Assembly: GCA_965246955.1 (NCBI GenBank) | Contig: CBDFGA010000004.1 | Location: forward strand, 1,888,100 to 1,952,099 | DNA: 64,000 bases | Direction: 5' to 3' | Source: Chthonomonadaceae bacterium | Lineage (GTDB): Bacteria > Armatimonadota > Chthonomonadetes > Chthonomonadales > Chthonomonadaceae | Part shown: piece after piece, positions 7,120-35,147 of the stretch | How the letters are laid out: each line of letters begins with the position of its first letter | Position numbering within the stretch: the first letter of the stretch is position 1 | Translations under genes and position numbers: made by a program | The notes under the pieces: generated by a model | Databases searched by the model: none | Told to the model about the DNA's origin: nothing | What the model saw: only the letters and a program-made list of their open reading frames with translations

Positions 7120-8370
7120 GTGTTGCGAGACGCCTTCCGTAGTCTGTTCGCGCTTACTGCTATTTTTTGTGTTTTATTGCCTCCTGCTATGGCCTCCGCG
7201 CAGTCGGTTTCTCCGCGTCTGCCCGTCGCCGCGCCGCTGATTTTGCCGGGAATGGCCCCGCAAATTGTGGTGACGCTTTCCAGCCCGAACTATTTCATCC
7301 GGGCCGACTCCCGCACCGGCGCTCCGATTATGCCGCGAGATGTTGCGGCGAGCGCGGCGGTCGTGAACTGGCCCGCCGGAATCGCGCCGCCGCCGACTTT
7401 CCTCTGGCACGTTTATCTGGACTGGAAAATGCCGGGGTGGGACGGCTTCGAGACGCGCCACCCGATTGACGAAAAGACCTTTATGGCGGCGAGTCCGTTC
7501 CGGCCCGATCTGTCCGGCGCGGTGCGGGGCGGCGTTTTGACCATCTACGCAAAGGCCGTGCTAAACGGGCGGGAGATCATCGGAAGCGCAAAAGCGAACG
7601 TAATTGGGTTTAATCCGTCGCGGCGGGCTGTGCTTGCCGGGTTTCCGGTCTCGCGGTTCGGGCTGATCGCCTCCAAAATCGGAACGATTGAGAGCGGGCT
7701 GCGGCAGTTCACGCCGTCGTCGCTTTCTAAGGCGGGCGGGCAGCCGATAGTCTCCCCGTCTGGCGATGTGGGAATGATGCAGTTGAACGCGCCGACCGGG
7801 GCAATTACTTCGAGCGATCAGGTGTGGGACTGGCGGCAAAACGTGCGGCGCGGCCTAGAGATGTTGGCTGGCAAGGGCAGGACAAGCGTCGTGGTATCGC
7901 GTGGCGGCATGGGGCGCGGCTGGCAGCGCCCGTCGGAACGCGGGCTGCAATGTCTGGTCAACCTGAACGCCGCCCGTCTGCTGCTCGGTCTGACCCCGCT
8001 TGCCGCCCCGGAAGCGCCGCCGCTGTCCGCCGTTCCCGGTTCCGGCATCCTTCCCGGCGAGACCGACCCCGATCATGTCGCGCTCAGTCAGCTGGAACGG
8101 GACGCGATTCGCCGCTATAACGGCGGGCGAGAATACGCCTTCGTCCTCGTTCCCGACCCCGATTCGCTGACGATTGCCCGCGCCGGTTGGGAAGTAGACC
8201 CGACTCGCGGCGGGATACGGGCAAGTTCCGGCGCTCCCGATTATGTGACGCGAGCATTGGCGGCACGGAGCGGTATGATCTACCCGCCGCCACGCCCGAA
8301 GACCGTAAAAAGGGAAAAGGGGCGGGGAAAAAGAAAAAGGCATATTGCGCGGCGCGGAGCGAAAAAGTAA
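7120..8370 (+). CDS. Secreted protein with lytic-transglycosylase-like motif (putative peptidoglycan-recycling enzyme)
   Basis: Signal peptide ending AMASAQS. GMMQLN...W motif resembles the SLT catalytic region. Lys/Arg-rich C-terminal tail. Overlaps murQ start (TAATG). Confidence 0.45.
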   Translation: MLRDAFRSLFALTAIFCVLLPPAMASAQSVSPRLPVAAPLILPGMAPQIVVTLSSPNYFIRADSRTGAPIMPRDVAASAAVVNWPAGIAPPPTFLWHVYLDWKMPGWDGFETRHPIDEKTFMAASPFRPDLSGAVRGGVLTIYAKAVLNGREIIGSAKANVIGFNPSRRAVLAGFPVSRFGLIASKIGTIESGLRQFTPSSLSKAGGQPIVSPSGDVGMMQLNAPTGAITSSDQVWDWRQNVRRGLEMLAGKGRTSVVVSRGGMGRGWQRPSERGLQCLVNLNAARLLLGLTPLAAPEAPPLSAVPGSGILPGETDPDHVALSQLERDAIRRYNGGREYAFVLVPDPDSLTIARAGWEVDPTRGGIRASSGAPDYVTRALAARSGMIYPPPRPKTVKREKGRGKRKRHIARRGAKK

Positions 8371-9290
8371 TGAGCGTCCCGGCCTTATTTTTCCCGGAAC
8401 AGTTTGCGGGGCTGGAAACGGAGGCGCGAAACCCGCGCACCGCCGATCTGGACACGCTTGCGATTCCTGAACTGGTGACGCGGCTGCACGCGGAGAATTT
8501 CTTGGTGGCGGACGCGGTGCAAAAAACGCTGCCGGAGATCGCCCGCGTCGTGGAAATTCTGGCGGCGCGGCTGGGAAACAATGGGCGGCTGTTTTATGTC
8601 GGGGCAGGGACGAGCGGGCGGCTGGGCGTACTGGACGCAAGCGAGTGTCCGCCGACTTTTGGCGTTTTGCCGGAATTGGTTCAGGGGATTATCGCGGGCG
8701 GCGCTGCCGCCCTCACCCGCTCCATTGAGGGCGCAGAGGACAGCGCGGAAATGGGCGCGACCGACCTGCGGGAACGCGGCGTTACTGTCGCCGACGCGGT
8801 AATCGGCATTGCGGCGAGTGGACGAACGCCTTATGTCATCGGGGCGTTGGACGCGGCGCGGGAGATTGGCGCGGCGGCGTTCGCGGTGACAAACGTTTCC
8901 GATTCGGAACTCTCGCGCCACGCGGAGATTACCATTGCCGCCGTGACCGGGCCGGAACCGCTGACCGGTTCCACGCGCCTGAAAGCGGGAACAGCGCAAA
9001 AAATGGTCTTGAATATGCTGACGACCGCCGCCATGATTCGCCTCGGCAAGGTCTATGACAACCTCATGGTGGACGTTTGCGCCACAAATGAAAAACTCCG
9101 CGACCGCGCCGTCCGAATTGTGATGTCCGCGACGGGCGCTGATAGGCAGGCGGCGGAAGCGGCGCTGATCGAAGCGCAGGGCGGCGTGAAGACGGCGATT
9201 GTCCTGCTCGCCTGCCGGGTCTCCGCGTCCGAAGCGAAGGCGCGGTTAGACGCGGCGGGGGGCTGGGTGCGGACGGCGCTCATTGCGTAA
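8370..9290 (+). CDS. murQ: N-acetylmuramic acid 6-phosphate etherase MurQ
   Basis: SIS domain, GAGTSGRLG motif. ATG overlaps the upstream stop (TAATG). Confidence 0.85.
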   Translation: MSVPALFFPEQFAGLETEARNPRTADLDTLAIPELVTRLHAENFLVADAVQKTLPEIARVVEILAARLGNNGRLFYVGAGTSGRLGVLDASECPPTFGVLPELVQGIIAGGAAALTRSIEGAEDSAEMGATDLRERGVTVADAVIGIAASGRTPYVIGALDAAREIGAAAFAVTNVSDSELSRHAEITIAAVTGPEPLTGSTRLKAGTAQKMVLNMLTTAAMIRLGKVYDNLMVDVCATNEKLRDRAVRIVMSATGADRQAAEAALIEAQGGVKTAIVLLACRVSASEAKARLDAAGGWVRTALIA

Positions 9291-10268: not shown

Positions 10269-10409
10269 TATCCACGAAACGACACGAAGGGACACGAAAA
10301 AAGGAAATTCGACAAGAGGAAAAATCCAATCATTATCCTGTCAATCCTGAAAATCCCGTCAATCACGTCTAAATTCTTCTTCGTGTCCCTTCGTGTCCTT
10401 TGTGGATAG
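10269..10409. repeat. MITE-like element, family C (ATCCACGAAACGACACGAAGGGACACGAA arms), copy 1
   Basis: About 30-bp terminal inverted repeats. Inner aatcctgaaaatcccgt motif shared with copy 3. Other copies at 25295-25450 and 26150-26276. Confidence 0.85.
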
Positions 10410-23423: not shown

Positions 23424-25280
23424 TTGGCGCACACTTCCGAACAATGGCAGGCCCTCGCAACGCAGCTGCGGGCCGACAGCATCCGCAGCACGACCGAGGC
23501 CGGCAGCGGACACCCGACTTCCAGTATGTCCGCCGCCGATTTAATGGCGGTATTGCTTTATGACTACCTGCATTACGACTGGAACAATCCGCATAATGTG
23601 ATGAACGACCGGCTGATTTTTTCCAAAGGCCACGCCGCGCCGCTGCTCTACGCGATGTACAAAGCGGCGGGCGCAATCACCGACGCCGAAATGATGACGC
23701 TGCGCAAAATGGGCAGCCGCATCGAAGGCCACCCCGTGCCGCTTCCCAACGGCCTGCCGTTCGTGGATCTCGCGACCGGTTCGCTGGGTCAGGGGCTTCC
23801 GGCGGGCGTCGGCATGGCCCTGAGCGCTAAAATGCTCGACAAATCGCCCGTGAAAATCTACGTCCTGCTCGGCGACTCCGAAATGGCGGAAGGCAGCAAC
23901 TACGAGGCGCTGGAACTGGGCGGACATTACAACCTGACTAACCTTGTGGCGATTCTGGACATGAACCGCCTCGGACAGCGCGGCCCGACTATGCTGGAAT
24001 GGCATGGGGAAATCTACGCCGCCCGCGCCGAAGCGTTCGGCTGGCGGGCGATTGAGATTGACGGGCAGGACGTGAACGCGGTCAACGCCGCCTACGCCGA
24101 AGCGCAGACTTCGGACAAACCCGTTTTTATCGTCGCGAAAACCAAAAAAGGCGCGGGCGTTTCGTTCCTTGCCGACCATGAGGGCTGGCACGGCAAAGCG
24201 CTTCCGGCGGACAAGGCCGTCGAAGCGCTGGCGGAACTCGGCAACCCGGCGGGCAATGTTCGGACTCCCAATCTCGGCTCGCATCCCGGCGCGTCGGCGC
24301 TGACGGGCGAGGCGAAAGAATTTGTCGCGCCGAAGTACGATCTCGGCGTCAAAGTCGCGACCCGCGAAGCGTATGGCGACGCGCTCGTCGCGCTGGGCGC
24401 GGCGCACCCGAACGTCGTGGCCCTCGATGGCGAGGTTAGCAACTCGACTTTTGCGGACAAGTTCAAGAAAGCGTACCCGGAGCGCTTCTTTGAGCAGTAC
24501 ATCGCGGAGCAGCAATTAGTCAGTTCGGCGGTCGGGATGCAGGTCATGGGCAAAATCCCGTTTGCGTCCACCTTTGCGGCGTTCTTCGCCCGCGCCTACG
24601 ATCAAGTCCGCATGAGCGCGATTTCGCAGGCCAATATCCGCCTTGCGGGTTCCCACGCGGGCGTCTCCATTGGCGAAGACGGCCCCTCGCAGATGGCGCT
24701 GGAAGATTTGGCCTCCATGCGCGGAATCTTCGGCAGCACCGTCCTCTATCCCTCCTGCGCCACGACGACGGCCCACCTCGTCAAGCAGATGGCGGAAACG
24801 AACGGCGTCGTTTATATGCGCACGACCCGCGAGAAACTGCCCGTCCTCTACGGCCCGGACGAGATGTTCCCGATTGGCGGCAGCAAGGTCGTCAAGCAGT
24901 CGGACAAAGATGTCGCTACGGTCATTGGCGCGGGAATCACGCTGCATGAGGCGATCAAGGCGTATGACCTGCTCGCCGCCGAAGGCGTGTCTATCCGCGT
25001 GATTGACCTGTACTCCGTCAAGCCGATTGACGCCGCGACCCTGAAAGCGGCTGCGGCGGCTACGAATGGCAACCTGATCGTGGTGGAAGACCACTGGGCG
25101 CAGGGCGGACTCGGCGACGCGGTGCTGGAAGTGTTCGGCGGCCCCGATGGGCCGCACCCGAACGTGACGCGCCTCGCGGTCAACGCCATGCCGGGATCGG
25201 GCGCTCCGCAGGAACTCGTGGATGCGGCGGGTATCGGGGCCGCCGCCATTGTCGCGGCGGTCAAAGCGACTCAGAAGTAG
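23424..25280 (+). CDS. tkt: Transketolase
   Basis: TPP-binding GDGE-type motif (LLGDSEMAEGSNYEA), HGxxL region. TTG start preceded by AAAGGA. Confidence 0.9.
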   Translation: MAHTSEQWQALATQLRADSIRSTTEAGSGHPTSSMSAADLMAVLLYDYLHYDWNNPHNVMNDRLIFSKGHAAPLLYAMYKAAGAITDAEMMTLRKMGSRIEGHPVPLPNGLPFVDLATGSLGQGLPAGVGMALSAKMLDKSPVKIYVLLGDSEMAEGSNYEALELGGHYNLTNLVAILDMNRLGQRGPTMLEWHGEIYAARAEAFGWRAIEIDGQDVNAVNAAYAEAQTSDKPVFIVAKTKKGAGVSFLADHEGWHGKALPADKAVEALAELGNPAGNVRTPNLGSHPGASALTGEAKEFVAPKYDLGVKVATREAYGDALVALGAAHPNVVALDGEVSNSTFADKFKKAYPERFFEQYIAEQQLVSSAVGMQVMGKIPFASTFAAFFARAYDQVRMSAISQANIRLAGSHAGVSIGEDGPSQMALEDLASMRGIFGSTVLYPSCATTTAHLVKQMAETNGVVYMRTTREKLPVLYGPDEMFPIGGSKVVKQSDKDVATVIGAGITLHEAIKAYDLLAAEGVSIRVIDLYSVKPIDAATLKAAAAATNGNLIVVEDHWAQGGLGDAVLEVFGGPDGPHPNVTRLAVNAMPGSGAPQELVDAAGIGAAAIVAAVKATQK

Positions 25281-25294
25281 ACTGCGCAAAAAAT

Positions 25295-25450
25295 CTATCC
25301 ACGAAACGACACGAAGGGACACGAAACAAGAGAACAGAAGAAAGGGAAAAGGCGACAGGAAAAAGAAATTCGATCTTTACCCTGTCCACCCTGCAAACCC
25401 CGCTCCTCCTGTCTCTTCTTCGTGTCCCTTCGCGTCATTTCGTGGATAGA
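25295..25450. repeat. MITE-like element, family C, copy 2
   Basis: ctatccacgaaacgacacgaagggacacgaaa ... ttcgtgtcccttcgcgtcatttcgtggataga. Confidence 0.85.
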
Positions 25451-25639
25451 TTTTTTGTGGAACTTTTTGCATCCTTTGCCGGTTGAACGGACGAGGCCCG
25501 CTGACGAATCGTAACCATTTCCCGAACATGAAACGCGGCAAAACATTCGCAACGCGACATTTTGTTGTAATAAACGCAACGGGCTGACAATCGCTTCCGA
25601 TTTTTGTATAATAGGTCGAAGCGATAGGATGAGGGCCAG

Positions 25640-26164
25640 ATGCTGGGAAACACGAAAAACGACAAAACGATTTGTAAACAAAGGACGCTGGATGCGACCG
25701 ACCATCAGATTTTGCGCCTGCTCCACGCAGACGGACGCAGGACGCAGGAGAGCATCGCGCACGAGGTTTTCCTTTCCCGCCCCGCCGTCCATGATCGGGT
25801 GAAGCGGCTGGAAGAAACGGGTGTGATTACGGGCTATCAGGCGCAGATTGACTGGCGTAAAGTCGGGCAGGCCCTTTCCCTCTTTGTCTGGGTGCGCACT
25901 TCGGGCGGCAAACTCCACGATCTCGCGGACGCAATTATGACGTTCAGCAACCGCGATACGCTGGTTGAGGAGTGCCACCTCATCACCGGCGACTGGTGTC
26001 TGTTGCTGAAAGTTCGCACCGTCTCCACCACTTCCCTGCAAATTTTGCTTAACCGCCTGCGTGATATGCCCCGCGTCCGCAACACCATGACGACGCTCGT
26101 TCTGTCCTCTGCCGGCGAGAATTTTACCGAAATAGAAACGCAGGATGAGCTATCCACGAAATGA
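25640..26164 (+). CDS. lrp: Lrp/AsnC family transcriptional regulator
   Basis: HTH_AsnC N-terminus (LDATDHQILRLLHADGRRTQESIAHEV) plus RAM domain. Last codons (ELSTK) come from the repeat C3 arm. Confidence 0.85.
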   Translation: MLGNTKNDKTICKQRTLDATDHQILRLLHADGRRTQESIAHEVFLSRPAVHDRVKRLEETGVITGYQAQIDWRKVGQALSLFVWVRTSGGKLHDLADAIMTFSNRDTLVEECHLITGDWCLLLKVRTVSTTSLQILLNRLRDMPRVRNTMTTLVLSSAGENFTEIETQDELSTK

Positions 26165-26276
26165 CACAAAAGAACACGAAAAAAGGGAAGAGGGAAGAAA
26201 ATGCAACCCTAATCCTGAAAAATCCTGTTCATCCTCTCTATTCTTCTTCGTGTCGCTTCGTGTCATTTTGTGGATA
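26150..26276. repeat. MITE-like element, family C, copy 3
   Basis: ctatccacgaaatgacacaaaagaacacgaa ... ttcgtgtcgcttcgtgtcattttgtggataa. Inner aatcctgaaaaatcctgt. Confidence 0.85.
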
Positions 26277-26312
26277 AAAAAAACGCATTGAACTTTTGAC
26301 GGCGGTTGTGGG

Positions 26313-27119
26313 TTGCAACGGGCGAAGGAGAATTGGGCTGTGAAACGACTTGAAAAAAAGCATCCGCTGGCGATCCGCTGGTTCCACTGGATTAACTTTC
26401 CCGTGCTGATGATTATGATCTGGAGCGGGATACTCATCTATTGGGCGGTAGATGACCACACCGAAAAACCGTCTGTCAACAACAACCATTACCGCATCGG
26501 GATTGGCGACCATACGCTGTTTGAGTTTTTCCCGCCCGCGTTCTACCACCCGTTCGAAGTCCTCAATGCGAAAGGCGATGTCGTGCGGCCCGCGCTCTAT
26601 CATCTCGACGTGCGGCTGGCGGAGGGAATGGCGTGGCACTTTTTCTTTATGTGGCTGTTCGCAATCAACGGGATGCTGTACGTTCTTTATACGTTCCTAT
26701 CCGGCGAATGGCGGCACTTGCTGCCCGACCGAAGATCGCTGAAAGAGGCGATTCAGGTTGTGCTGTATGACCTGCATTTAAGCAAATACCACCCGCCGCG
26801 CCGCAAGTTCAACGGGGCGCAGCGGATCGCGTATACCAGTATTATCGTGATGGGCGCGGGGTCGCTGGCGACAGGGCTTGCGATTTACCGGCCCGTGCAG
26901 TTCGGCTGGATTACCACGCTGGTCGGCGGCTACGGATACGCTCGTTTCTTCCATTTCTGGCTCACGCTGGGCTACTGCGGATTCTTCCTTGTCCATGTCA
27001 CGCAGGTCATGCGGGCGGGCTGGAACAATTTCCGCGCAATGGTCACGGGCTACGAAATGACCGATGACGGCCTGCGCGTTCCGGGCTACCACCCGGCGGT
27101 AAAAGAGGAGAGCGCATGA
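26313..27119 (+). CDS. Cytochrome b561 / Ni-Fe-hydrogenase b-type cytochrome family membrane protein
   Basis: Four TM helices with conserved His (HWINFPVLMI, FHFWLTLGYCGFFLVH). Alternative GTG start at 26340 has an AAGGAG SD. Confidence 0.6.
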   Translation: MQRAKENWAVKRLEKKHPLAIRWFHWINFPVLMIMIWSGILIYWAVDDHTEKPSVNNNHYRIGIGDHTLFEFFPPAFYHPFEVLNAKGDVVRPALYHLDVRLAEGMAWHFFFMWLFAINGMLYVLYTFLSGEWRHLLPDRRSLKEAIQVVLYDLHLSKYHPPRRKFNGAQRIAYTSIIVMGAGSLATGLAIYRPVQFGWITTLVGGYGYARFFHFWLTLGYCGFFLVHVTQVMRAGWNNFRAMVTGYEMTDDGLRVPGYHPAVKEESA

Positions 27120-27670
27120 CTGCCTATGCTCCAACGGCGCAGAACGGACGCGCCCCGCATGGCCCGATTGCCTGCCCGATGTGCGGACTGGAAAACGCGC
27201 CGGACGCCGTTTTCTGCGCCAATGAAGCGTGCCACAAAGCGCTGGGCGGTTTCCGCTACGTTTCGGAGGAACTCCACGCAAACCGCCACTGGCACGAGCA
27301 TCTTGCGGAGCGGGTCACGGGATTTATCGGCAAGCCCCGCTTTTTTGTGTTCCATGCGCTGTGGTTTCTGGCGTGGATTGCGTTCAACAGCGGTATGGTG
27401 ATGGCGGTGCGGCAGTTCGATTCGTACCCGTTCAGCCTGCTGGGGATTTTACTGAGCGCGGAGGCGGTTCTGGCGACGGGCTTTATTTTAATCCGGGAAA
27501 ATCAGCAGAACGCCTACGCGGAGAAACGCGCCGAGATAGATTATGAGATTAGTGTGCGGACGTACCGCGAGGTCACCGCGCTGCGCGATTCGCTCGTAGC
27601 AGTCGCGTCGCGCTTAGAGCGTCTGGAAGCGGGCCTGCCCCGCCAGACCGCGCCGACGAGGGAAAAATAG
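27116..27670 (+). CDS. DUF1003 family membrane protein with N-terminal zinc ribbon
   Basis: CxxC..CxxxxC ribbon. RHWHE and LSAEAVLATGFILIRENQQ motifs typical of DUF1003. Overlaps upstream stop by 4 nt. Confidence 0.6.
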   Translation: MTAYAPTAQNGRAPHGPIACPMCGLENAPDAVFCANEACHKALGGFRYVSEELHANRHWHEHLAERVTGFIGKPRFFVFHALWFLAWIAFNSGMVMAVRQFDSYPFSLLGILLSAEAVLATGFILIRENQQNAYAEKRAEIDYEISVRTYREVTALRDSLVAVASRLERLEAGLPRQTAPTREK

Positions 27671-27888
27671 TGATGGAAGAACCGGAAAATCAGGGAACAG
27701 AGAACAGGGAACAGGGAACAGGGGAGAAGGAGAATGTGGCGTCTGGCGCGGAGGTCATCGCTGCGCCCCCGTCTGGCGCGGAGGCATCCGCTGTCGCTGC
27801 CCCGTCTGCGCTGGCGGCGGGCTACCCCGTTCCCCAGGAGCAGACCGAGACGGTCGATGTTTTGACGGGAAATGCGGCGGAGCGGGAG

Positions 27889-28617
27889 ATGCGCCGCATT
27901 TCGCGCCGTAGTTTCCTCTGGGCGGGCGTTGCGATTGCGGGCGTTCTGGGCGGGCGGCACTGGCTGAACTCGCGCAGTCAGATTGACGGCGTGGCATGGC
28001 CTTTGCGCCGCGTTCTGGAGATTAACGAGCAGATTACCCGCGACTATTTCCAGACAGCGCGGCTCTCCCCGACCTTCCCCCGCGCAATGGCCTCGTTCCC
28101 CAAACCGAACGGCGAGTATGGATTGGACGGCGATGTTGACCCGGAATGGAGTCTCAGCCTCGTCGGTCTGCCGGACGCGGAAAAGCCGCTGATGGTCTCG
28201 CTGGACGATCTGAAAAAACTGCCGCGAACGGAAATGGTCACGGAACTCAAGTGCATCGAAGGGTGGAGCAAAATCGTGCAGTGGGCGGGCGTCCGGTTCG
28301 CGGACGTAATCGCGCATTACTGGCCGGTCGCAGATCATCCGTTGAGCGAACTGCCGCAGTACGTCGCAATAGAGACGCCGGACGGGGCATACTACGTCGG
28401 GCTGGACAAAGCGAGCGCCATGCACCCGCAGACCCTGCTTTGCTACGAGATGAATGGCGCCGCCCTGACGGACGAGCATGGCGCTCCGCTGCGCCTCGCG
28501 ATTCCGGTGAAGTACGGCATCAAGAATATCAAACGCATTGGAACGATTCGCCTGACCGACGCCCGACCGAAAGATTACTGGGCGGAACAGGGCTACGACT
28601 GGTACGCAGGGCATTAG
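27889..28617 (+). CDS. Sulfite-oxidase-family molybdopterin oxidoreductase (MsrP/YedY-like), Tat-secreted
   Basis: Twin-arginine motif SRRSFLWAG. Moco-binding region (LKCIEGWSKIVQWAGV). Start 27889 has a GGAGCGGGAG SD. ORF-track start 27670 adds a low-complexity, repeat-encoded extension. Confidence 0.75.
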   Translation: MRRISRRSFLWAGVAIAGVLGGRHWLNSRSQIDGVAWPLRRVLEINEQITRDYFQTARLSPTFPRAMASFPKPNGEYGLDGDVDPEWSLSLVGLPDAEKPLMVSLDDLKKLPRTEMVTELKCIEGWSKIVQWAGVRFADVIAHYWPVADHPLSELPQYVAIETPDGAYYVGLDKASAMHPQTLLCYEMNGAALTDEHGAPLRLAIPVKYGIKNIKRIGTIRLTDARPKDYWAEQGYDWYAGH

Positions 28618-28697
28618 TCCCGGCGTCCTGCGCGGCAATGATGCCGCGAACCCATGCGGCAATCGCGCCGCAAATTTCAAAAAGGAAAAATGAACTT

Positions 28698-28940
28698 ATG
28701 AACACTCGAATTGCAGGCCTGTTTTCGGCCCTGACGCTGTTCGGCGTCCTGACGGTCTCCTCGTCCTTCGCGCAGGACAAAATGGGCAAAATGGACAAGA
28801 TGTCCCACAAAGGCAAAATGGGCCACTCCAAAATGGCGCATAAAGGCAAAATGATGCACGGCAAAATGTCCCACAAGGGCAAAATGATGCACGGCAAGAT
28901 GAGCCATTCCAAAATGTCCCACGACAAAATGAAGAAATAG
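28698..28940 (+). CDS. Small secreted Met/His/Lys-rich repeat protein (putative periplasmic metal-binding protein)
   Basis: Signal peptide ending FAQD, then about eight HKGKM/SHxKM repeats. AAAGGA SD 8 nt upstream of ATG. Confidence 0.7.
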   Translation: MNTRIAGLFSALTLFGVLTVSSSFAQDKMGKMDKMSHKGKMGHSKMAHKGKMMHGKMSHKGKMMHGKMSHSKMSHDKMKK

Positions 28941-28971
28941 GCCATTCCCGCAGGAGTCGCGCAGGCCACCC

Positions 28972-29022
28972 CTGAAAAAGACCGCCGGACAGTTTTCGTG
29001 ACTGACCGGCGGTCTTTTTTGT
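28972..29022 (+). terminator. Rho-independent terminator
   Basis: aagaccgccgg..ccggcggtcttttttg hairpin plus T-run. Confidence 0.75.
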
Positions 29023-29036
29023 GGTATAATGTACAT

Positions 29037-29474
29037 ATGGAAATCGAAAAACAAAAAACGCGAAAACGCGGCAGACCGTCCAACGCGACCACGCGGGCCG
29101 AAAAGTACACGTTATCGCTCGGCCCCGATTTCACAGACTGGGTAAAAAGCCAATCCGGTGGACTATCGGAGTTAGTTCATCGCGACCTAAACTCGCCCGC
29201 ATTTGCCTCCAGCAAGACTTTTGGCGGAACGCTACGCGGCGAGGAGTTAACAATGCCGCGGCAAATGACGAATCTCCGTCGCCCTATACTAGAGCGCCGC
29301 CTGCTTCGAGGGGAGCGCGAGAAATCAGAAGCGGCGCTGGACGCAGCAGACAACCAGAAATGGGACGAATCCTTCGCATCTACACCGACCGCGAAACTTC
29401 GCAAGATGGCGGAAAAAGTCCGGGCAGATTACGCGGCAGGCAAGACACGGCTTGGAGGCTTTGGTGGCGAATGA
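29037..29474 (+). CDS. Putative antitoxin / DNA-binding partner of the downstream toxin
   Basis: TATAAT 8 nt upstream of ATG. Stop overlaps the toxin start (ATGA). Confidence 0.4.
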   Translation: MEIEKQKTRKRGRPSNATTRAEKYTLSLGPDFTDWVKSQSGGLSELVHRDLNSPAFASSKTFGGTLRGEELTMPRQMTNLRRPILERRLLRGEREKSEAALDAADNQKWDESFASTPTAKLRKMAEKVRADYAAGKTRLGGFGGE

Positions 29475-29755
29475 TTTCCCGGACCACGCAGGACTTCCGG
29501 GAATTATTCAAAAATCTTCCAGTCAGAATCCAGGCGCAGGCGCGGCAAAGTTATGCGGTGTGGCAGTCTGATTCCTTTCATCCCGGCCTGCATTTTAAGC
29601 CTGTCCACAAAAGCTTTCCTGAAATATGGTCTGTCCGCATCGGCAGGAATTGCCGGGCGTTAGGGCTTCGTGAGGCGGTGGATGGACACGATACGATCTT
29701 CTGGTATTGGATCGGGCCGCATAGCGAATACGACCGCCTGCTCAAACAGTTCTAA
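29471..29755 (+). CDS. RelE/ParE-superfamily toxin (HigB-like mRNA interferase)
   Basis: Motif WSVRIGRNCRALG...WYWIGPHSEYDRLL resembles the HigB/RelE-like C-terminal H..EYD region. 94 aa. Translationally coupled to upstream ORF. Confidence 0.5.
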   Translation: MISRTTQDFRELFKNLPVRIQAQARQSYAVWQSDSFHPGLHFKPVHKSFPEIWSVRIGRNCRALGLREAVDGHDTIFWYWIGPHSEYDRLLKQF

Positions 29756-34187: not shown

Positions 34188-35147
34188 TTAATGTACTTTC
34201 GGATCAGTCTCCGCTGTCTGCGGTTCGACCCGATTGATACACACTTGCTCATGCAGCGGCAAGACTTTGGGCGCTCCTTTGGAGAAACGACCCGGCTTGC
34301 GGGCATACGCTTGCTCTAAAGTTTCCTGCCGCGCCTGCTGAACGGCAGCGGCTTTTCCCATGTGAACCATTTCCGGGGTCAGCAACGCAATGCCGGTATG
34401 GTACTGCTGCGTGTTATAGAACGTCAGAAACGCCGCGCAAAACGTCCGCGCTTCCGCAATGCTATCAAAATGACCGGGAAACTGAGGCGCATATTTCACC
34501 GTCTTGAACTGCGCCTCCGAAAACGGGTTGTCATTGGAAACGCGCGGACGCGAGTGCGAACGGGTCACGCCCAGATCACAAAGCAACTCCGAAACCGTTT
34601 TAGAGACCATCGGCCCGCCCCGATCCGCATGAAGGGTGAGCGCATCGCGAGAAATCCCGTGACGCTGGCAGGCCGTTTCGATCAGTTGCGCCGCCAGATG
34701 TTGACACTCCCGTTCGGAGACAAGCCAGCCGACCACGCAGCGACTGAAAATATCCAGCACGACATACAGGCGGTATCCCTGTCCTTTGGCGGGGCCGCGC
34801 AGTTTGGTGATGTCCCACGTCCACACCTGGTTGGGCGCGGTGGCGAGAAGCACGGGGCGGGTATGTTTTTGGTGGCGCGATTGCCGCCTCCTTTCGGCAA
34901 CCTGTTTGTTTTCGCGCAAAAGCCGATACATCGTCGCGATTGAGGCCAAATAGCAGCCTTCGTCGAGCAACGCGGCGTAAACCTGGCGAACCGACCGATC
35001 CAAAAAGCGTTCCGAGTGCAGATGCGCGAGCAGTTCCGCTTTTTCCGCCGCCGAAAGGCTTTGGGACGTTGAATTTGTCCGCAGTCCCAAAACCAACTGA
35101 CCGCCGTTTCGCTGACGATAGAAAGTCGCCCGGCTTTTGCCCACCAC
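34188..35147 (-). CDS. IS3 transposase OrfB (DDE integrase core)
   Basis: rve domain motifs (WTWDITKL, YVVLDIFSRCVVGW, HADRGGPM, SRPRVSNDNPFSE). Confidence 0.85.
   Translation of the reverse strand: MVGKSRATFYRQRNGGQLVLGLRTNSTSQSLSAAEKAELLAHLHSERFLDRSVRQVYAALLDEGCYLASIATMYRLLRENKQVAERRRQSRHQKHTRPVLLATAPNQVWTWDITKLRGPAKGQGYRLYVVLDIFSRCVVGWLVSERECQHLAAQLIETACQRHGISRDALTLHADRGGPMVSKTVSELLCDLGVTRSHSRPRVSNDNPFSEAQFKTVKYAPQFPGHFDSIAEARTFCAAFLTFYNTQQYHTGIALLTPEMVHMGKAAAVQQARQETLEQAYARKPGRFSKGAPKVLPLHEQVCINRVEPQTAETDPKVH

What the first reader, a model, noticed from the sequence alone, without database searches (positions are those of the whole stretch)
26313..28940. Cytochrome b - DUF1003 - Tat Mo-oxidoreductase - Met/His-repeat protein operon
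Four tightly linked genes (4-nt overlaps). The last is an 80-aa secreted protein consisting almost entirely of HKGKM/SHxKM repeats (Met/His-rich, typical of Cu(I)/Ag(I) or Ni/Zn periplasmic binders). The MsrP-like enzyme start is preceded by (GGGAACA)n heptads and a 21-bp direct repeat (gtctggcgcggagg.atc.gctg x2). Its N-terminus is therefore uncertain and may itself be repeat-derived.
Basis: partly seen in the sequence, partly recalled or inferred. Interest (0 to 1): 0.55.

Follow-up and report, generated by a model that had tools for sequence, protein, structure and literature searches.

The report
MsrP-like repair operon with Met-rich peptide
This is a four-gene operon for a membrane-linked molybdenum enzyme of the MsrP type plus a small secreted methionine-rich peptide, most likely a non-proteobacterial version of the known bleach-scavenging, methionine-repair system rather than a metal-binding system.

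Summary
The four genes are real and form a conserved unit: cytochrome b (PF01292), DUF1003 with a zinc ribbon, a YedY/MsrP-type molybdoenzyme, and an 80-aa secreted Met/Lys/His repeat peptide, ending in a strong terminator. Only one junction is a 4-nt overlap. The peptide gene follows an 80-nt spacer.

The cytochrome b plus Mo-enzyme pair recurs in 79 of 80 related loci from six phyla. A secreted Met-rich "xKM" repeat peptide lies next to it in 17 of 80, an 8-fold enrichment. ECF sigma factors, anti-sigma factors, TlpA-like redoxins, MsrA and MsrB also cluster there. His is abundant only in this clade's peptides, whereas Met and Lys are abundant in all. No metal-resistance genes lie nearby.

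The best reading is a variant of the proteobacterial MsrPQ-MrpX/BcrXQP hypochlorite-scavenging system, with a different haem partner and an extra DUF1003 subunit. Formal family cut-offs for MsrP and MXKDX are not met.

The repeat-containing N-terminus of the Mo enzyme is translated. Its frame is open in 25 of 28 loci, and it encodes a hypervariable disordered tail before a twin-arginine anchor. This is a new variant of a known kind, of moderate interest.

The parts
25640..26164 (+). Lrp/AsnC-family transcription regulator directly upstream. It is a candidate local regulator, and this role is inferred.
   Evidence: Pfam AsnC_trans_reg plus HTH_24. An orthologous regulator sits directly upstream of the cytochrome b gene in 5 loci: WIN, L081, L082, L013 and L015.
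26150..26276 (.). Palindromic, MITE/REP-like hairpin element between the regulator gene and the cytochrome b gene. It probably insulates or terminates upstream transcription.
   Evidence: The 33-nt arms are 82% complementary. A second copy lies at 25287-25457 and a third arm at 10269. Rfam returns only hairpin-type noise here.
26340..27119 (+). Di-haem cytochrome b561-type membrane subunit (PF01292), the proposed quinol-oxidising electron donor. The ORF is open from TTG 26313, and GTG 26340 with a GAAGGAG Shine-Dalgarno sequence is the likelier start.
   Evidence: Pfam. Four His are invariant in 83 homologues: H16, H100, H205 and H219. A homologue lies directly upstream of the Mo gene in 79 of 80 related loci.
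27116..27670 (+). DUF1003 membrane protein. It has a cytoplasmic CxxC...CxxxxC zinc ribbon, two transmembrane helices and a long C-terminal helix. It is a clade-specific third subunit or accessory factor of unknown role.
   Evidence: Pfam. The Cys residues are invariant. AF2 model, pLDDT 80. No structural neighbour beyond the zinc ribbon. The gene is present between cytochrome b and the Mo gene only in Chthonomonadales-type loci and in L089.
27673..28617 (+). YedY/MsrP-type single-domain molybdoenzyme, the catalytic subunit. The ORF is also open from GTG 27670.
   Evidence: PF00174. The MsrP model scores 90.2 bits, below its cut-off of 207. The best solved relative by sequence and by fold is E. 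coli YedY/MsrP, 1XDQ/1XDY. The Mo-ligand Cys (TGC 28252-28254) sits in the C-I-E-G-W-S motif and is invariant in 79 sequences.
27673..27900 (+). Translated, hypervariable, acidic Ala/Pro/Glu-rich disordered N-terminal tail of the Mo enzyme. It contains the 7-nt (27691-27723) and 30-nt (27740-27808) tandem repeats.
   Evidence: TRF and repeat searches. The frame is open across the whole spacer in 25 of 28 loci, against 1 and 3 of 28 for the other two frames. The first ATG abuts the upstream stop codon in most loci. pLDDT is below 50 here.
27901..27975 (+). Twin-arginine motif S-R-R-S-F-L-W followed by a hydrophobic helix. This is a Tat signal that is probably kept as a membrane anchor.
   Evidence: R79, R80 and F82 are invariant. 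AF2 models a continuous helix over residues 67-100 with pLDDT 84-95. No AxA cleavage site is visible by inspection.
28632..28671 (+). Two GCGGC-N6-GCCGC hairpins in the 80-nt spacer before the small ORF. They could be an RNA stabiliser or processing site, or an operator.
   Evidence: The arms are invariant and the loops variable in the window and L081-L084. The pattern occurs 4 times in the window against 0.97 expected. The fold z-score is -2.2.
28698..28940 (+). Small secreted Met/Lys/His repeat peptide, an MrpX-like sacrificial methionine sink. The signal peptide is encoded at 28698-28772 and the 55-aa mature part at 28773-28937.
   Evidence: Composition. TIGR02953 MXKDX repeat model, 25.8 bits against a cut-off of 41. 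Conserved in L081-L084. Analogous ORFs occur in 17 of 80 loci.
28975..29020 (+). Intrinsic terminator that closes the operon.
   Evidence: Read directly from the sequence: a 14-bp stem AAAAAGACCGCCGG/CCGGCGGTCTTTTT followed by a T-run. The inner stem was found by the scan. It gives a hairpin-type hit.

Best explanation
The operon encodes an envelope system that defends against oxidants and repairs oxidised methionine.

Proposed mechanism.
- A di-haem cytochrome b561-type membrane protein takes electrons from the quinol pool.
- It passes them to a Tat-exported molybdoenzyme of the YedY/MsrP type, which faces the periplasm and is probably anchored by its N-terminus.
- The molybdoenzyme reduces methionine sulfoxide.
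- The co-transcribed 55-residue secreted peptide (24% Met, 29% Lys) acts as a sacrificial sink. Oxidants such as hypochlorite oxidise it, and the enzyme recycles it. This is how MrpX/BcrX work with MsrPQ in Proteobacteria.
- DUF1003 is an extra membrane component specific to this lineage. Its role is unresolved.

What is shown: gene content, conservation, fold, Mo-ligand and haem-ligand residues, the twin-arginine motif, and the recurrent neighbours.

What is inferred: the direction of electron flow, Met-sulfoxide reductase activity, peptide oxidation and recycling, and retention of the signal anchor.
For: - The catalytic subunit is closest to E. coli YedY/MsrP. By sequence it scores 97.7 bits, against 52 bits or less for sulfite oxidases. 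By fold the top hits are 1XDY/1XDQ at E = 1e-13.
- The YedY-type C-I-E-G-W-S motif is invariant.
- A cytochrome b homologue with four invariant His is adjacent in 79 of 80 related loci from six phyla.
- Secreted or lipoprotein Met-rich xKM-repeat ORFs lie on the same strand next to the module in 17 of 80 loci. That is 8-fold over the flanks, p = 2e-8. The window's own peptide is the only such ORF in 64 kb.
- Met and Lys are abundant in all these peptides, whereas His is abundant only in this clade.
- The peptide's only family hit is TIGR02953, the MXKDX repeat protein family. Brucella BcrX, the MrpX homologue of the bcrXQP HOCl-resistance operon, is annotated under that family's name (PMC8315932; PMC4436054).
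- Recurrent neighbours are an ECF sigma factor (18 loci), a zf-HC2 anti-sigma factor (6), a TlpA/AhpC-TSA redoxin directly upstream (12), and MsrB or MsrA in 10 of 80 loci.
- L089 carries ECF sigma, anti-sigma, cytochrome b, DUF1003, the Mo enzyme and a secreted MsrB in one string.
- All four close relatives keep the four-gene order while their flanks differ.
Against: - The Mo enzyme scores far below the MsrP equivalog cut-off, 90 against 207 bits. Only its C-terminal 155 residues align, so the substrate pocket may differ.
- The haem partner is not MsrQ.
- The peptide is below the MXKDX cut-off. Only 3 of 10 analogous peptides hit that model, weakly. Homology therefore cannot be separated from convergent low complexity.
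- Only 17 of 80 loci have an adjacent Met-rich ORF.
- The window has no ECF sigma factor and no Msr genes.
- The peptide has 5 HxxM and 8 MxH motifs, which would also suit Cu(I)/Ag(I) binding.
- There are no expression or biochemical data.
- The 700-bp 'near zone' used in the enrichment test was set after the hits had been seen.
Confidence: 0.6

Rival explanations
1. The small protein is a periplasmic soft-metal sponge or chaperone for Cu(I), Ag(I), or possibly Ni/Zn. The MsrP-like enzyme would keep its Met ligands reduced, as E. coli MsrP does for CusF.
For: The mature peptide is 15% His and 24% Met, with 5 HxxM and 8 MxH motifs. HxxM-type motifs bind Ag/Cu in SilE-like proteins; this point rests on my own knowledge. 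E. coli MsrPQ is copper-induced and repairs the methionines of CusF (PMC9302797).
Against: - His is abundant only in this clade's peptides. Functionally analogous neighbours elsewhere have 0-7% His.
- There is no Pfam or NCBIfam hit to SilE, PcoE, CusF or CopC-type families.
- No metal efflux, multicopper oxidase or metal sensor gene lies within about 10 kb in the window, and none appears among the recurrent neighbours of 80 loci.
Confidence: 0.2
2. The cytochrome b and Mo-enzyme pair carries out a different redox reaction, for example reduction of another S- or N-oxide, or oxidation of sulfite to the quinone pool. The Met-rich peptide would then have an unrelated envelope role.
For: - The enzyme is not an MsrP equivalog.
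- Its N-terminal half differs from MsrP.
- 'YedY-like group 1B' enzymes are described as uncharacterised and as having a different cytochrome partner (PMC7759655).
- Most loci (63 of 80) lack an adjacent Met-rich ORF.
Against: The recurrent neighbours are MsrA, MsrB, a TlpA-like redoxin and ECF sigma/anti-sigma factors. The active-site motif is YedY-type rather than the sulfite-oxidase type. Met-rich ORFs are 8-fold enriched next to the module.
Confidence: 0.15
3. The 80-aa ORF is a chance open frame in repetitive DNA and is not expressed.
For: - Its exact sequence is absent from the protein collection, although both neighbouring proteins from the same contig are present.
- Only 7 sequence relatives were found among 1.84 billion representatives.
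- The sequence is low complexity.
Against: - It is conserved with an intact signal peptide, an invariant ATG and a Shine-Dalgarno-like AAGGAA/AAAGAA in four relatives at 65-76% identity.
- It was called as a gene in those contigs.
- Analogous ORFs occur in 17 distant loci.
- It is followed by a strong terminator.
Confidence: 0.03

Closest known systems
yedY1Z1-mrpX of Azospira suillum and bcrXQP of Brucella melitensis: MsrPQ plus a methionine-rich periplasmic peptide for hypochlorite scavenging
   Same: - A periplasmic Mo enzyme of the YedY/MsrP type, a membrane haem b partner and a small secreted peptide of about 20% or more Met plus charged residues are encoded in one operon.
- The peptide resembles the MXKDX repeat family.
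- In relatives of this locus an ECF sigma/anti-sigma pair lies alongside, as SigF/NrsF and BcrS/AbcS do in those systems.
   Different: - The haem partner is a PF01292 cytochrome b561-type protein, not the FRD-type MsrQ/YedZ.
- The Mo subunit is below the MsrP equivalog cut-off. It has a long disordered N-terminal tail and probably an uncleaved Tat anchor.
- A DUF1003 gene is inserted between the two subunit genes.
- The local regulator is Lrp/AsnC-type.
- The peptide is His-rich and below the MXKDX cut-off.
- The host is Armatimonadota, not Proteobacteria.
E. coli MsrP (YedY), PDB 1XDQ/1XDY
   Same: A single-domain SUOX fold, the Mo-ligand Cys in a C-[VI]-E-[AG]-W-S motif, a conserved GAP[LV]RL[VI]P...KYG block, and a twin-arginine signal.
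   Different: Identity is 30% over about 210 residues. The N-terminal third is unrelated. MsrP has a cleaved signal and is soluble, and it partners with MsrQ.
Sulfite-oxidase family group 1B 'YedY-like' enzymes (Kappler 2008, as summarised in PMC7759655)
   Same: A smaller Mo domain than YedY and a different membrane cytochrome partner, presumed to act as reductases.
   Different: That group is defined only by phylogeny and is uncharacterised. No reference sequences were available here, so membership could not be tested. No Met-rich peptide partner or DUF1003 turned up for it in the papers searched here.
SilE/PcoE and CusF-type periplasmic Met/His metal binders
   Same: Small, secreted proteins, probably disordered, with repeated HxxM and MxH motifs.
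   Different: There is no family-model match and no linkage to metal resistance genes. His is not conserved in the analogous peptides of other lineages.

Membership tests
MsrP (NCBIfam NF003767 equivalog) | Whole-protein score at or above the curated cut-off of 207 bits | tested here: not met
   90.2 bits. Only residues 159-312 align, to model positions 100-262.
MsrP (NCBIfam NF003767 equivalog) | SUOX-fold Mo domain with the Mo-ligand Cys in a YedY-type C-V/I-E-A/G-W-S motif | tested here: met
   PF00174, 96.5 bits. The Cys aligns to YedY Cys102 and is invariant in 79 sequences. The top fold hits are 1XDY/1XDQ.
MsrP (NCBIfam NF003767 equivalog) | Partner is MsrQ/YedZ, an FRD-type haem b protein (PF01794) | tested here: not met
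   The adjacent haem protein is PF01292. The same holds in 79 of 80 related loci.
MsrP (NCBIfam NF003767 equivalog) | Twin-arginine export signal | tested here: met
   S-R-R-S-F-L-W with invariant RR and F. Cleavage was not testable. The model shows a continuous helix over residues 67-100.
MsrP (NCBIfam NF003767 equivalog) | Protein-bound methionine sulfoxide reductase activity | not testable with these tools
   Needs an enzyme assay.
MrpX/BcrX, MXKDX repeat protein (TIGR02953) | Score at or above the curated cut-off of 41 bits | tested here: not met
   25.8 bits, E = 7.5e-6, spanning model positions 2-75 of 78. Of 10 analogous peptides, 3 score 19-22 bits.
MrpX/BcrX, MXKDX repeat protein (TIGR02953) | Small secreted protein with about 20% Met, otherwise mostly charged residues | tested here: met
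   Signal peptide ending SFA|QDKM. The mature part is 24% Met, 29% Lys, 15% His and 5% Asp. MrpX is described as 20% Met and 44% charged residues.
MrpX/BcrX, MXKDX repeat protein (TIGR02953) | Encoded in one operon with a periplasmic Mo methionine sulfoxide reductase and its haem partner | tested here: inconclusive
   It is co-directional with, and 80 nt downstream of, a YedY-type enzyme, with a terminator only after the peptide gene. The enzyme is MsrP-like but not a proven Msr.
MrpX/BcrX, MXKDX repeat protein (TIGR02953) | Oxidised by hypochlorite and re-reduced by the Mo enzyme; induced by reactive chlorine species through an ECF sigma factor | not testable with these tools
   An ECF sigma factor is absent from the window but adjacent in 18 of 80 related loci.
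PF01292 prokaryotic cytochrome b561 | Model match above cut-off and four His haem ligands in transmembrane helices | tested here: met
   56.5 bits against a cut-off of 30.1. H16, H100, H205 and H219 are invariant in 83 homologues.
SilE/PcoE/CusF-type metal-binding proteins | Family-model match and linkage to metal efflux or resistance genes | tested here: not met
   No such Pfam or NCBIfam hit. No metal genes in about 10 kb on either side or among the recurrent neighbours.
SO-family group 1B 'YedY-like' (Kappler 2008) | Phylogenetic placement with group 1B reference sequences; smaller Mo domain; non-YedZ cytochrome partner | not tested
   Only the description in PMC7759655 was available. The features seen here are consistent with it.

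The most novel reading that the evidence does not exclude
The cytochrome b561-type plus YedY-like pair would be a second, phylogenetically widespread, quinol-driven extracytoplasmic methionine-sulfoxide reductase system. It occurs in Armatimonadota, Acidobacteriota, Planctomycetota, Bacteroidota, Actinomycetota and Sericytochromatia. In several lineages it has independently recruited sacrificial Met-rich peptides. DUF1003, a family with no known function, would be a dedicated component of envelope Msr systems. It is found here with the MsrP-like enzyme, in L089 with a secreted MsrB, and in L087 next to a membrane-anchored MsrA.
Probability: 0.35. Interest if true: 0.6.

Novelty: new variant of a known kind. 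Interest (0 to 1): 0.42.

Why it matters
If correct, this assigns a function to an uncharacterised branch of the sulfite-oxidase family, the 'YedY-like' enzymes with a non-MsrQ cytochrome. That branch is common in soil and freshwater phyla.

It would also show that pairing a sacrificial methionine-rich peptide with a molybdenum reductase is not confined to Proteobacteria.

It gives the first functional lead for DUF1003.

Finally, it offers a simple test case, a 55-residue peptide and a roughly 24-kDa Mo domain, for separating oxidant-sink roles from metal-binding roles in Met/His-rich periplasmic peptides.

Tried and rejected
- **Riboswitch or other known RNA.** Rfam on 25000-29600 gave only hairpin-type miRNA noise on the palindromic elements and the terminator.
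- **Sigma-70 promoter for the operon.** No convincing site was found between 26277 and 26340.
- **Solved-structure relatives of cytochrome b and DUF1003 by sequence.** None were found.
- **DUF1003 fold search.** Only the zinc ribbon matched, at E > 0.7.
- **Homology search for the small peptide.** There were 3 weak hits in the 90% clusters and 7 in the 1.84-billion representative library. This is too low-complexity for sequence-based family building, so I scanned ORFs by composition instead.
- **Mini-ORF.** A 3-codon ORF (ATGAACTTATGA, 28690-28701) overlaps the peptide's start codon. It is not conserved in relatives, so I dropped it as a regulatory feature.
- **264-aa ORF at 28146-28940.** This is an out-of-frame shadow of the Mo gene whose tail is the real small ORF.
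- **First tblastn run.** It used a mis-framed cytochrome b query and was redone.
- **Literature.** No paper in the library combines MsrP, cytochrome b561 and molybdopterin. DUF1003 appears only in passing in two unrelated papers.
- **Context look-ups.** Look-ups for P0001 and P0005 failed because those proteins are not on record.
Full report
**What is in the sequence**

Four genes lie on the + strand between 26313 and 28940.
- A cytochrome b of the prokaryotic b561 family (PF01292, 56.5 bits). Its ORF is open from TTG 26313. GTG 26340 follows a GAAGGAG Shine-Dalgarno sequence and is the likelier start.
- A DUF1003 protein (PF06210, 80.4 bits) with an N-terminal zinc ribbon, at 27116-27670.
- A molybdopterin oxidoreductase (PF00174, 96.5 bits), at 27670/27673-28617.
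- An 80-codon ORF at 28698-28940 with no Pfam match.

The gene junctions differ from the finding. Cytochrome b and DUF1003 share a 4-nt ATGA overlap. DUF1003 and the Mo gene overlap by 1 nt or are 2 nt apart. The small ORF follows an 80-nt spacer.

A 14-bp GC-rich stem followed by a T-run at 28975-29020 closes the unit.

They are a 7-nt unit x4.7 at 27691-27723 and a 30-nt unit x2.2 at 27740-27808. The small ORF itself is built from 33-nt and 15-nt arrays.

**The small ORF is a gene**

Its product has a Sec-type signal peptide (…SSSFA|QDKM…). The 55-residue mature part has 13 Met, 16 Lys, 8 His, 7 Gly and 6 Ser.

The four closest relatives of the Mo enzyme that could be fetched are 67-81% identical to it. 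All four carry cytochrome b, DUF1003, the Mo gene and a 73-80-aa ORF in the same order, while their flanking genes differ.

The small proteins align at 65-76% identity. The start codon and the QDKM junction are invariant.

The exact sequence is absent from the protein collection, although both neighbouring proteins from the same 2.96-Mb contig are present. It may therefore be unannotated in the source genome.

**The Mo enzyme**

It is nearest to E. coli YedY/MsrP.
- By sequence, 1XDQ scores 97.7 bits, against 52 bits or less for sulfite oxidases.
- By predicted fold, an AF2 model with pLDDT 81 finds 1XDY/1XDQ first, at E about 1e-13 and 30% identity.
- The Mo-ligand cysteine aligns with YedY Cys102 in a C-I-E-G-W-S motif and is invariant in 79 homologues.

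It is not an MsrP equivalog. The NCBIfam MsrP model gives 90 bits against a cut-off of 207 and aligns only the C-terminal half.

A review describes a 'YedY-like' group 1B of the sulfite-oxidase family, with a smaller Mo domain and a different cytochrome partner, still uncharacterised (PMC7759655). This enzyme fits that description. Membership could not be tested because no reference sequences were available.

**The N-terminus**

Homologues are conserved from '…E-x-E-M-R-R-I-S-R-R-S-F-L-W-A-G…' onward. Before that lies a variable Ala/Pro/Glu-rich stretch of 20-130 residues. The Met just before the RR motif is Ile or Leu in several homologues.

I examined 28 loci where the upstream stop codon and the RR motif are at least 150 nt apart. 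The Mo frame is open across the whole spacer in 25 of them. The other two frames are open in 1 and 3. The first in-frame ATG usually abuts or overlaps the upstream stop codon.

The extension is therefore translated. It is a disordered, acidic, hypervariable tail (pLDDT below 50). In this genome it was partly built by the 7-nt and 30-nt tandem duplications. Another relative, P0005, shows its own ATPATEA repeats.

After the tail come the invariant twin-arginine motif and a long helix at residues 67-100. No obvious signal-peptidase site is visible. I infer a Tat-exported, N-terminally anchored, periplasm-facing enzyme.

**The conserved core and its neighbours**

I fetched 80 loci from GTDB species genomes that encode relatives of the Mo enzyme at 46-59% identity. 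They come from Armatimonadota, Acidobacteriota, Planctomycetota, Hymenobacter and other Bacteroidota, Actinomycetota and Sericytochromatia.

A cytochrome b homologue lies directly upstream in 79 of the 80. Its four His residues H16, H100, H205 and H219 are invariant, as expected for two bis-His haems. DUF1003 sits between the two genes only in Chthonomonadales-type loci (L001, L015, L023, L081-L084) and in L089.

I then scanned all six frames for stretches with at least 6 Met in 30 residues.
- Same-strand ORFs with signal peptides and xKM repeats lie immediately downstream of the Mo gene in 12 loci, from Armatimonadota, Acidobacteriota and an actinomycete MAG.
- They lie immediately upstream of cytochrome b in 5 loci: four from Planctomycetota, three of which have a clear lipobox-type Cys after the signal peptide, and one from Sumerlaeaceae.
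- Hits within 700 bp of the module are 8-fold denser than in the flanks, binomial p = 2e-8. The 700-bp zone was chosen after inspection, and one of the 18 hits is on the opposite strand.
- In the whole 64-kb window, the finding's ORF is the only such stretch.

Across these peptides, Met is 12-41% and Lys is 14-35% in every case. His is 12-17% only in the window's clade (the window, L081, L002 and L020, which were the ones tabulated) and 0-7% elsewhere.

Clustering the neighbouring ORFs found several recurrent partners:

| Neighbour | Loci (of 80) |
|---|---|
| ECF sigma factor | 18 |
| zf-HC2 anti-sigma factor | 6 |
| Secreted TlpA/AhpC-TSA redoxin directly upstream of cytochrome b | 12 |
| DUF1223 | 6 |
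| Lrp/AsnC regulator in the window's position | 5 (counted among the 80 plus the window and L081-L084; two of the five, L013 and L015, are among the 80) |
| MsrB | 7 |
| MsrA | 5 |
| MsrA or MsrB (union) | 10 |

One metagenomic locus, L089, strings together ECF sigma, anti-sigma, cytochrome b, DUF1003, the Mo enzyme and a signal-peptide MsrB.

No copper, silver, nickel or zinc resistance genes appear among the recurrent neighbours. None lies within about 10 kb in the window either. There the flanks hold type II/IV secretion genes, a transketolase, a ParE-like toxin pair, an SPFH protein and a transposase.

**Comparison with what is known**

In Azospira suillum, the SigF-controlled yedY1-yedZ1-mrpX operon encodes a periplasmic peptide of 20% Met and 44% charged residues. 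Hypochlorite oxidises it, and the YedY-type reductase is proposed to regenerate it (PMC4436054).

In Brucella, the homologous bcrXQP operon confers HOCl resistance. [quoted passage not shown]

The window's peptide has a single family hit, to that MXKDX model (TIGR02953). It spans the full model but scores 25.8 bits against a cut-off of 41. Three of ten analogous peptides score 19-22 bits.

So the system works like MsrPQ-MrpX, but it is not a member by the curated criteria.
- The reductase is a different branch.
- The haem partner belongs to a different family, PF01292 rather than the FRD-type MsrQ.
- Whether the peptides are homologous or convergent cannot be decided.

**The metal-binding reading**

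The peptide has 5 HxxM and 8 MxH motifs. E. coli MsrPQ is known to keep the Met ligands of the copper chaperone CusF reduced (PMC9302797). A clade-specific Cu(I)/Ag(I)-binding role, alone or on top of the sink role, therefore cannot be excluded.

It is the weaker explanation. His is not conserved in the analogous peptides, no metal-binding family matches, and no metal genes are linked.

**DUF1003**

It has an invariant four-Cys ribbon, two transmembrane helices and a long C-terminal helix. There is no structural or literature lead.

Of six more distant homologues whose context could be read:
- one is in a cytochrome b, DUF1003, Mo enzyme, MsrB string (L089);
- one follows a membrane-anchored MsrA by 24 nt (L087);
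- four have unrelated neighbours.

This hints at a link to envelope Msr systems, but nothing more.

**Verdict**

The best explanation, at confidence about 0.6, is a non-proteobacterial variant of the sacrificial Met-rich peptide plus molybdenum methionine-sulfoxide reductase system. It would be driven by a cytochrome b561-type quinol oxidase and carries an extra DUF1003 component.

It is a new variant of a known kind, of moderate interest. It mainly offers a testable function for the uncharacterised YedY-like enzymes and a first lead on DUF1003.

Noticed in passing
window 25287-25457, 26150-26276, and an arm at 10269-10288: A repeated palindromic element of about 130-170 nt. Its terminal inverted repeats of about 35 nt (TATCCACGAAAYGACACRAA…) are 82-95% complementary. 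Copies flank the Lrp/AsnC gene on both sides. The motif matches 5 times in the window against 0.02 expected. It looks like a MITE/REP-type element.
   Followed up: partly
window 28632-28647 and 28656-28671; L081-L084 equivalents: Two GCGGC-N6-GCCGC hairpins or palindromes lie in the spacer before the small ORF. The arms are invariant and the loops variable in five genomes, and L082 has further, less regular copies of the motif. They could be an RNA stabiliser or processing site that gives the peptide mRNA a higher level, or a protein operator.
   Followed up: partly
L087:3345-4525 and L089:2210-4883: DUF1003 lies 24 nt downstream of a membrane-anchored MsrA (L087). It also lies in a cytochrome b, DUF1003, Mo enzyme, secreted MsrB string behind an ECF sigma/anti-sigma pair (L089). 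Four other DUF1003 contexts were unrelated.
   Followed up: partly
L009:7018-7356 and 7798-8844: An Abditibacteriaceae locus has two secreted proteins downstream of the module with extreme Met content, up to 15 Met in 30 residues. The shorter one is 41% Met in its mature part. The second is 354 aa with internally duplicated M-rich modules such as 'MSxxDKMMMM'.
   Followed up: no
L010, L017, L041, L043 (Planctomycetota): Here the Met-rich peptide gene lies upstream of cytochrome b instead of downstream of the Mo gene. In three of the four (L017, L041, L043) it encodes a lipoprotein-type signal with a Cys after the signal peptide. The repeats are (G/S)DKM or GGAMDKGKMD and lack His.
   Followed up: partly
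window 28998-29474 and 29360-29755: Two overlapping ORFs lie immediately downstream. The second has a ParE-like toxin domain (25.7 bits). This is probably a toxin-antitoxin pair. Its promoter-like site (29002-29030) overlaps the operon's terminator.
   Followed up: no
window 28690-28701: A 3-codon mini-ORF (ATG AAC TTA TGA) has a stop codon that overlaps the start codon of the small ORF. It is present only in this genome, not in L081-L084.
   Followed up: yes
window 28698-28940: The exact 80-aa sequence is not in the 15-billion-protein collection, although the Mo enzyme and the DUF1003 protein of the same 2.96-Mb NCBI contig are. The peptide gene may be unannotated in the public record.
   Followed up: partly
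window 34188-35147 (-): An rve-family integrase/transposase ORF lies about 5 kb downstream of the operon.
   Followed up: no
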